NCBI GenBank assembly: GCA_964016885.1
Contig: OZ024745.1
Location: 25,172,001 to 25,236,000 of the forward strand
Reading direction: 5' to 3'
Source of the DNA: Eledone cirrhosa
Lineage: Eukaryota
Length of the DNA stretch: 64,000 nucleotides
Positions 46,331-48,090 of the stretch are shown piece after piece. How positions within the stretch are numbered: position 1 is the first letter of the stretch; each line of letters opens with the position of its first letter. Position numbers and translations under genes: made by a program. The notes under the pieces were generated by a model, which saw nothing but the letters and a program-made list of their open reading frames with translations, did no database searches and was not told the DNA's origin.

Positions 46331-47345
46331 TGATGGTAATGCTGGGGGGGGGGGTGATGTTGGTAGGATGGCTGTGGTAGTGGGGGAGGGGGGGATGTTA
46401 GGTGGTGGTGGGAAGTGCTATTGGCAGAAAGATGGCAAAAAATAAAAATCCTCAGGTGGGTTTTGGTTTGGTGGGGCTGTGTGAGAGAGAGAGGGAGGGA
46501 GGGAAGGAGAGAGAGAGAGGAAAAAGAGGAAAGGCTTACAGAGTGGTCCTGAACTGTAGAGTGGTGGGTGGTGGCTGATAGAATTGAAGTTAAGGTTAGT
46601 ATGTATTTTATAGTGTGTGTGTGTGTCCTGGGAAAGGTGGTTGGGTGAAGTGTGTGTAAGTGTAAAGTAGGAGGGGGGGGGGTGATATTGGTAGTAAAGA
46701 TTGTGAATGGTAGTGGGAGGAAATGGTGGTGGTGGTGATGGGGAGATTGTGAATAGTTTTGTGGGAGGAATTTAAAGTTATGATATGGTGGTGGTGTTGG
46801 TGGGTGTGGTAGTAATAAAGATTGTGAATGGCATTGTGGCTAGAGGTTGGTCTTAGAGGCAATGAACTGAAAGAAGTGGTAGTGGTGGTGGTAGAGAGTG
46901 AATGGTTGGTGTTTCAATTGGCAGTGTCAGTAGGGCATCTGATAACATGCTTTGCAGCATATAGTTATGTACCTTTATGTTCTGAGTTCAAATCCCACCG
47001 AGGTTGAATTTGCTTTTCATCCTTATGGGGGTCAGTAGGACAAAGTACCAGTAAAGCATTGGAGTCAATTTAATTGGCTTTCCTTTTCCCTTCAAATTGC
47101 TGGCCTTGTGCCAAAAGAAACAGTTATTATTGGGGCAGTCTTGGCCAAGCTGATATTGCATGGCATATAAATTGTCTGCAAAAGAAATAGATGTGATCCA
47201 CAGAAATAGATGTCATTCCTTAGGTCAGGTTAGATCAAGCAAACCTATGATCACAGACATTCCAGGCCATGACCATCCTGTATATGTGTATATATATATA
47301 TATATATATATATATTGAAAATTGCAAACTTGACTGTCACTACAC

Positions 47346-47391
47346 AATATGAACCTGAAGATTGCGAAAGCATGAAAGTACTTGTTCAATT
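47346..47391 (+). ncRNA. Minimal type I hammerhead ribozyme motif (Penelope-like-element type)
   Basis: Stem I TGAAC(47350-54)/GTTCA(47384-88), extendable by AAT/ATT. CTGAAGA (47355-61). Stem II TGC-GAAA-GCA. GAAA (47374-77). Palindromic GTAC, then TT (cut after 47383). Lies in an insert between (TA)n tracts. Confidence 0.82.
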
Positions 47392-48090
47392 AAAATTTAA
47401 TATTCTACCATACTATTTCATTCTAATACCATTATAAATTTTAGAGGATTTTAAATAAAACGAGTAAATCAGACAAAGTTGGAATTCCTTTTATTAATAT
47501 AATCTTCTATACACAATCATACACACCCGTGTATATTTATCTCTCTCTCTACATATATATATATATATATATATATATATATATATATATATATATATAT
47601 ATATATATATATATATATATATATATAATACATATATATATATATATATATATATATATATATATATATATATATATATATATATATATATATATATATA
47701 TATATATATATATATATGTGTATGTATGTATGTATATATGTAAGTAATTTAGTTTGTCAATGGTGACGAAGCAAGCAATGAAATATACATTTTTCAAGTT
47801 TCGTCCATCATCATCGACATCATCATCATCATCATCATCGTCATCATCATCATCGTGGACATCATCATCATCATCGTCATCATCGTGGACATCATCATCA
47901 TCATCATCATGTTCATCGTTTTTCAACTTTTCCATGCTGGCATAGATTATTGGACAGGATATTTTTGAGGCAATGTTTGACAGCTGGATGTCCTTCCTGA
48001 TCAACCCATGTAGCTGGTCCTATTGACATTCAGGGTTAGTTCATTGAAGCATTTCTGGCAAACAGAAGTTGTGCTAGTTTCAGGATATTT

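What the first reader, a model, noticed from the sequence alone, without database searches (positions are those of the whole stretch)
47316..47552. Second, unrelated minimal hammerhead in an insert between (TA)n tracts
Seen: TGAAC-CTGAAGA-T-TGC-GAAA-GCA-T-GAAA-GTAC-TT-GTTCA at 47350-47388. The core is intact, stem II is GNRA-capped with a U-U at its base, stem III is a palindromic GUAC, and ATTAAA follows. The ~240-bp carrier is bounded by TA repeats, and its stems differ entirely from the 5.4-kb ribozyme, so it is a separate family. Inference: a solo Penelope-like terminal repeat or retrozyme-like element. It has no antisense arm and is sense to ZIP11 if the intron extends this far.
Basis: partly seen in the sequence, partly recalled or inferred. 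Interest (0 to 1): 0.75.

Follow-up and report, generated by a model that had tools for sequence, protein, structure and literature searches.

The report
Truncated Penelope retrotransposon end with hammerhead
This 237-base insert in an intron of a zinc-transporter gene is one of thousands of cut-short copies of a Penelope-like jumping gene and carries a predicted self-cutting RNA; the copy itself is ordinary, but a few percent of its sister copies start exactly at the predicted cut, which likely records cutting inside the cell.

Summary
The hammerhead is present as described (47350-47388) and beyond chance (0 hits in 100 simulations). It is not a separate retrozyme. The 39-nt motif occurs 5,047 times exactly in the genome. 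The 237-bp carrier is the pseudo-LTR plus tail of a young 4,211-bp Neptune-like Penelope-like element with intact ORF1 and RT-GIY-YIG ORFs. The window copy runs from the predicted start site to the tail and lacks the promoter, like 57 of 100 sampled copies that stop at that start site: a likely dead copy of uncleaved RNA. It lies sense in the 67.5-kb last intron of a ZIP11-like gene. ATTAAA is a 7-bp deletion relative to the family. The new point is at family level: 22 junctions start exactly at the predicted cleavage site, against 0, at most 5 and 5 at three control positions. That is a likely in-vivo footprint of cleavage, a role still called unclear in print. Against: position +3 is also raised (16 matches), and stalling at a dimer helix would end copies at the same base. 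No RNA data were available.

The parts
47281..47315 (.). (TA)n target tract, 5' side; no target-site duplication can be read inside the repeat
47316..47349 (+). 5' leader of the element; begins 2-3 nt after the predicted initiator (CAGT, 71 nt before the cut, about 31 nt below a TATA-like box that this copy lacks)
   Evidence: 57 of 100 sampled copies start at -60..-80
47350..47388 (+). Predicted minimal type I hammerhead: 5-bp stem I, CUGAAGA, U/U flanking a 3-bp GAAA-capped stem II, GAAA, self-complementary AGUACU stem III, CUU triplet, predicted cut after 47383
47389..47498 (+). 3' part of the pseudo-LTR, ending at ATTAAT (first 3' end class); 7-bp deletion after 47393 creates ATTAAA; AATAAA at 47454-47459
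47499..47552 (+). AC-rich 'tail' (second 3' end class); in full-length elements it is the 5' UTR just before the ORF1 ATG
47553..47739 (.). (TA)n target tract, 3' side
4620..4770 (+). Penultimate coding exon of the ZIP11-like host gene; the insert lies in the following 67.5-kb intron, the last exon being 8.3 kb beyond the window
   Evidence: exons found with recalled short protein motifs

Best explanation
The insert is the promoter-less 3' end (pseudo-LTR plus tail) of a high-copy Penelope-like retrotransposon that encodes reverse transcriptase and a GIY-YIG nuclease, likely copied from uncleaved element RNA into a (TA)n tract and likely inert here. Shown: family identity, copy number, anatomy, intronic position, and where sister copies begin and end. 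Inferred: the nuclease nicks (TA)n; the RT primes internally at the tail end near the 5' end of the transcript and runs off the RNA's start after about 240 nt, so the copy keeps an intact, uncut ribozyme but loses the TATA box. Inferred: the hammerhead cannot close stem III alone (2-nt loop) and would cut only as a dimer or with the element's protein; a minority of templates were cut, giving copies that begin at the cut site.
For: 5,047 exact copies of the 39-mer and 7,813 of a downstream 22-mer, reversed controls 0. Copies continue upstream into RT (RVT_1, E 6.5e-7) and GIY-YIG (E 2.4e-6). Tandem units of 4,211 bp with an open 775-aa ORF2 and a 449-aa ORF1, one base different between two whole units. 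Two 3' end classes about 40-60 nt apart (25 without tail, about 73 with, 2 running into ORF1, of 100) match the two internal RT start sites flanking an AC-rich tail shown in vitro for Poseidon PAc (PMC11167929). 57 of 100 5' ends fall in 21 nt around a CAGT about 31 nt below TATATAAG (p 1e-33), in line with unprocessed RNA as the main template (PMC11167929). Contig depth from an unlabelled run steps up at the same place. No lineage-level change at 39 ribozyme positions against 13 of 111 flanking positions (76 copies, Fisher p 0.016).
Against: The start site is inferred from motifs and copy ends only. The 100-copy sample is the first 100 hits on contig C1, not a random draw, and ends come from blastn alignments blurred by microhomology and (TA)n. 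The ribozyme lacks the G10.1-C11.1 pair reported as conserved in PLE minimal hammerheads (PMC4209133) and has a CUU triplet, so it may be weak. The 5' end of this one copy could also have arisen by later deletion or by microhomology with the TA tract. The ribozyme conservation test is modest (p 0.016) and its threshold (minor allele in 10 or more of 76 copies) was set after seeing the table.
Confidence: 0.86

Rival explanations
1. An independent non-autonomous unit (non-LTR retrozyme or SINE-like element) of about 240 nt that amplifies on its own through small circular RNA, using the PLE enzymes.
For: Short units outnumber ORF1-start copies more than 30-fold (5,047 and 7,813 against 141 for a young-subfamily 26-mer); animal retrozymes are reported to derive from PLE pLTRs (10.64898/2026.07.22.740005).
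Against: No head-to-tail short arrays in the loci read; a circle cut and closed at the ribozyme would not give copies ending at the predicted start site 71 nt upstream of the cut; short copies carry the same subfamily variants as full-length elements, up to 100% identical to the young one; the TATA box is missing.
Confidence: 0.07
2. The copy has a role in the host: it cuts or terminates ZIP11 pre-mRNA in the long last intron.
For: Sense orientation inside the intron; all core positions intact.
Against: It is the only piece of the family in the 67.5-kb intron, so it has no cis partner; monomer stem III is not formed; single minimal hammerheads did not cleave in vitro (PMC4209133); it is 91% identical to a young full-length element and one of thousands.
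Confidence: 0.04
3. The hammerhead-like motif of this family is catalytically dead or irrelevant; the excess of 5' ends at position 0 comes from RT stalling at the foot of the self-complementary AAGUACUU duplex, or from fold-back at stem I. This rival concerns the mechanism, not the identity.
For: The 8-bp duplex (-6.6 kcal/mol) ends at -1, so a stall would also leave ends at 0; position +3 is also raised (16 matches; 23 against 15, p 0.13); a TATATA-anchored 31-nt window over the cut gave 38 reverse-strand hits against 30 in a control window; in vitro the PAc ribozyme is not needed for insertion (PMC11167929).
Against: Ends are blunt at exactly 0 with varied partners (TA tract, inverted arm, other element parts); positions -10 and -20 inside the ribozyme have at most 5 and 0 junctions; the motif is unchanged across subfamilies.
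Confidence: 0.3

Closest known systems
Minimal type I hammerheads in pLTRs of metazoan Penelope-like elements (Cervera and De la Pena 2014, PMC4209133)
   Same: In the pLTR; short stem I; small palindromic stem III; mostly found as dispersed single motifs in truncated copies; predicted to need a dimer.
   Different: Stem II has only 3 bp with a GAAA loop (7-8 bp in the schistosome families described); U/U in place of the conserved G10.1-C11.1 pair; very uniform in sequence, like the Drosophila virilis case.
Neptune clade of endonuclease-containing PLEs (Craig et al. 2021, PMC8557442)
   Same: C-terminal GIY-YIG with CCHH motif, CX4CxxC linker, DKG motif, (TA)n targets, partial tandems, inverted 5'-truncated copies, optional tail.
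   Different: An upstream 449-aa ORF1 overlaps ORF2 in the -1 frame at a TTTTTTA site in 30 of 30 copies. That paper's Fig. 1 legend allows a frameshifted ORF1 with a pseudoknot in PLEs; I could not see for which clade, and found no strong structure here. No tree with reference clades was built.
Poseidon PAc of Anolis (Frangieh et al. 2024, PMC11167929)
   Same: Two 3' end classes bracketing an AC-rich tail; AT-rich targets; most copies derive from uncleaved RNA.
   Different: Here the ribozyme and tail lie wholly in the 5' UTR (cut 209 nt before the ATG), and a minority of genomic copies begin at the cut, whereas that study found no RNA-seq reads starting or ending there.
Non-LTR retrozymes of animals (10.64898/2026.07.22.740005)
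   Same: Short non-coding unit with a type I hammerhead, related to a PLE pLTR.
   Different: Retrozymes are defined by head-to-tail repeats of the short unit; this unit is dispersed, single or head-to-head, and runs from start site to tail.

Membership tests
EN+ Penelope-like element | RT followed by a C-terminal GIY-YIG endonuclease in linked copies | tested here: met
   Pfam RVT_1 and GIY-YIG in L034 ORF; contiguous with the carrier
EN+ Penelope-like element | Pseudo-LTRs from partial tandems, inverted 5'-truncated copies, optional tail | tested here: met
   inverted copy within 80 nt in 61 of 100; two 3' end classes
EN+ Penelope-like element | Hammerhead motif in the pLTR | tested here: met
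Neptune clade | CX2-5CxxC linker before the endonuclease, CCHH motif, DKG (not DKA), (TA)n targets | tested here: met
   ORF2 translation read against motifs in PMC8557442 text and supplement rows; TA at 83 of 100 3' junctions
Neptune clade | RT phylogeny groups with Neptune rather than Nematis, Hydra or Poseidon | not tested
   no reference PLE proteins were available to the script machine
PLE minimal type I hammerhead | Core CUGANGA / GAAA / UH, stems I and II, palindromic stem III | tested here: met
PLE minimal type I hammerhead | G10.1-C11.1 pair at the base of stem II | tested here: not met
   U and U at these places in 76 of 76 and 75 of 76 copies; so a variant of the described motif
PLE minimal type I hammerhead | Self-cleavage (dimer- or protein-assisted) | not testable with these tools
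   indirect only: excess of copy 5' ends at the predicted cut
Non-LTR retrozyme | Head-to-tail repeats of the short hammerhead unit | tested here: not met
   none in the window or in the loci read; tandem period is 4,211 bp; not screened genome-wide
Non-LTR retrozyme | Abundant small circular RNA | not testable with these tools
   needs RNA data

The most novel reading that the evidence does not exclude
This family records its RNA templates in the genome: most short copies end at the transcript's start (uncut RNA), a few percent begin at the exact ribozyme cut (cleaved RNA is reverse-transcribed in the germ line), and ORF-bearing copies mostly run on past the start site (52 of 60 that reach it), up to seamless 4,211-bp multimers, as expected if cut unit-length RNA is closed into a circle and copied round. 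That would be in-vivo evidence that a Penelope hammerhead cleaves and feeds rolling-circle retrotransposition, in a young family with intact ORFs that can be rebuilt in vitro. The cleavage part alone I put at about 0.6, the circle at about 0.3.
Probability: 0.3. Interest if true: 0.7.

Novelty: new member of a known kind. Interest (0 to 1): 0.4.

Why it matters
The locus itself is routine debris of a known class of retrotransposon. The family matters more. The function of hammerheads in endonuclease-containing PLEs is called 'still unclear' (PMC8557442), and the one in-vitro study I found saw no need for cleavage and no RNA ends at the cut (PMC11167929). Thousands of copies of a young family with intact ORFs give a base-resolution record of template ends, with a peak at the predicted cut. 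This makes the cleavage and circular-template models testable by computation on the whole genome and by simple assays.

Tried and rejected
Rfam scan: no hammerhead hit. Monomer folding: no signal; a forced monomer structure could not be scored because of the 2-nt loop. RNA evidence: no RNA holder listed; three unlabelled runs held as contigs were laid and cannot show starts, ends or strand. TATATA-anchored window test of the cleavage peak: weak, 38 against 30 reverse-strand hits, because junctions gather at AT microhomologies. A base-by-base map of junctions across the whole ribozyme was not obtained, so the peak rests on five positions. Structure after the slippery site: nothing strong (-5.8 kcal/mol over 80 nt). 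Rare variants shared by all units of the C4 array cannot separate a circular template from a tandem master, later local duplication or assembly error; not pursued. Earlier findings: one unrelated hit. Lunse et al. on dimeric PLE hammerheads was not held and is known to me only as a reference in PMC6765202. No protein-homolog search, structure prediction or tree was run. Supplements of the bioRxiv retrozyme preprint were not seen and could list related invertebrate families.

Full report
Observation. The motif is in the sequence exactly as written, between two (TA)n tracts. The bare core pattern is common by chance (6 found, 7.7 expected) and the monomer folds no better than shuffles. The full descriptor with stems I and II and a palindromic stem III hits only this site and never in 100 simulated windows. 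Rfam does not detect it. The ATTAAA is a product of a 7-bp deletion in this copy.

What it belongs to. The 237-bp carrier gave 913 candidates, and all 40 that were scored matched at 94-100% over nearly the full length. The 39-nt ribozyme occurs 5,047 times exactly and a downstream 22-mer 7,813 times, with reversed controls at 0. Several copies continue upstream through CCAAT- and TATA-like motifs and a 3' UTR into a GIY-YIG endonuclease and a reverse transcriptase (Pfam). Full-length elements have a period of about 4.2 kb. One locus holds three direct units at 4,211-bp spacing plus inverted units, with open ORF1 (449 aa from ATG) and ORF2 (775 aa), and one base different between two whole units. 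ORF2 has DKG, YLDD, a CX4CxxC linker and a CCHH-type GIY-YIG, the marks of Neptune-type elements in PMC8557442 (passages and supplement rows seen). ORF1 and ORF2 overlap in the -1 frame at the same TTTTTTA site in 30 of 30 copies examined, which were the best matches to one young copy. A young-subfamily 26-mer at the ORF1 start has 141 exact hits.

Copy anatomy. I mapped the first 100 listed hits of the 22-mer, all on contig C1, onto a natural full-length unit. Counting from the predicted cut, 57 begin at -60..-80, 19 further upstream, 7 at -59..-6, 8 at -5..+12 and 9 further down. The main peak centres on a CAGT at -71, about 31 nt below TATATAAG, which I read as the start site (inferred). 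3' ends fall at about +124 (25 copies) or after the tail at about +165..+188 (about 73; a few may be alignments running through TA), and 2 run into ORF1. TA repeats lie at 83 of 100 3' junctions. An inverted family copy lies directly upstream in 61, a TA tract in 22. The window copy (start -68, tail, TA on both sides) is of a common type: 14 of 100 have a start-site end with an upstream TA tract. These features match pLTR, tail and inverted-copy descriptions in PMC8557442 and PMC3846280 (passages seen).

How it most likely arose. For Poseidon PAc, RT starts internally at two sites that bracket an AC-rich tail, and unprocessed RNA is the main template (PMC11167929, parts 1-2 of 4 read). In this family the tail sits in the 5' UTR, about 240 nt from the predicted RNA start. 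Priming there from a nicked (TA)n tract and running off the RNA's 5' end gives precisely the window's insert (inferred). The copy keeps an uncut ribozyme and has no promoter. It lies sense in the last intron of a ZIP11-like gene: donor near 4770, last exon at 72,270 in window-extended coordinates. It is the only family piece in that intron, so it has no partner in cis. Single minimal hammerheads did not cleave in vitro and dimers did so weakly (PMC4209133, parts 1-2 of 4 read), so an effect on ZIP11 is unlikely.

Is the ribozyme used? In 76 aligned copies, no position of the 39-nt motif carries a lineage-level variant, against 13 of 111 flanking positions (p 0.016). Stem III is self-complementary over 6 bp (8 with the A-U flank; -4.8 and -6.6 kcal/mol). 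I then counted genome-wide copies whose upstream bases break from the family at three set positions. At the cut there were 29 matches. Reading the loci, I dropped 4 local mutations or indels and 1 likely microhomology deletion and merged 2 head-to-head pairs, leaving 22 events that begin at exactly 0. Controls, read by eye from the listings: -20, 1 match and no junction; -10, 12 matches, 7 of them an 8-nt slippage, at most 5 junctions; +95, 11 matches, 5 junctions; +3, 16 matches. 22 against 10 over the three far controls gives p 2e-7; raw counts of 29 against 24 give p 4e-6. Where one arm starts at 0, the inverted partner usually starts at 0 to +12, and some full-length elements start there too.

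Results against that reading. Position +3 is not significantly lower than 0 (p 0.13). A TATATA-anchored window test showed only 38 against 30 hits. Only five positions were counted, with slightly different filters. An RT stall at the foot of an uncleaved dimer helix would also end cDNA at 0, and fold-back at stem I could explain the two perfect palindromes. The motif lacks G10.1-C11.1 and has a CUU triplet (slower than GUC by my recall). I put in-vivo cleavage at about 0.6.

Long copies. Of 90 ORF1-start copies examined (the first 90 of 141), 52 extend upstream past the start site, 12 of them by more than 1.3 kb; 8 stop at it, 6 near the cut, 2 between and 22 downstream. Among copies that reach -60, 57 of 76 in the pLTR sample stop at the start site against 8 of 60 ORF1-bearing ones (p 2e-13). 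Their template was therefore continuous across the pLTR: either a circle, as proposed in PMC4209133, or multi-unit RNA from tandem masters, as in PMC11167929. My data do not separate these.

Novelty. Hammerheads in PLE pLTRs, truncated single copies, tails and TA targeting are all in print. Seven literature searches returned no paper whose listing or passages report genomic 5' ends at a PLE ribozyme cut, or this family; the library lacks most subscription papers and repeat databases were not searchable. Also seen: the retrozyme preprint 10.64898/2026.07.22.740005 (parts 1 and 3 of 5), passages of PMC6765202 and PMC12602865. Verdict: an ordinary truncated copy of a new member of a known kind, whose family offers a useful test bed. 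Interest 0.4.

Noticed in passing
L034/L035/L157-L158, ORF1-ORF2 junction (about 1,480 nt after the cut site): ORF1 and ORF2 overlap in the -1 frame at TTTTTTA in 30 of 30 copies; looks like a programmed ribosomal frameshift, with no strong downstream structure predicted.
   Followed up: partly
G000:C4:322580500-322600499 (L157, L158): At least three direct and more than one inverted unit of 4,211 bp, seamless and nearly identical, with intact ORFs; other arrays at C1:97.37 Mb and C1:147.24 Mb. Could be a rolling-circle product, a local duplication or an assembly error.
   Followed up: partly
G000:C1:21872068-21880684 (L065-L068): Two apparently full-length elements head to head, joined at the predicted cut site (-1 and about +8).
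   Followed up: partly
window 5215-5510: Imperfect 300-bp inverted repeat (79% between arms) holding CTGATGAG; no blastn similarity to this family, and it does not pass my full hammerhead descriptor.
   Followed up: partly
window 5836-6250: 415-bp near-perfect palindrome (93% between arms) next to a TA tract.
   Followed up: no
window 18089-18146, 46930-47130, 48090-48482: tRNA-like Rfam hit (29.3 bits) at 18 kb; SINE-like repeats near the insert, one as a 197-bp tandem pair.
   Followed up: no
L031:163-3748: A second, unrelated-looking decayed element with an asparagine-rich stretch, RT and GIY-YIG-like frames lies just upstream of a family copy.
   Followed up: no
window 4770 to extended 72,270: The ZIP11-like gene has a 67.5-kb last intron that fills most of the window.
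   Followed up: yes
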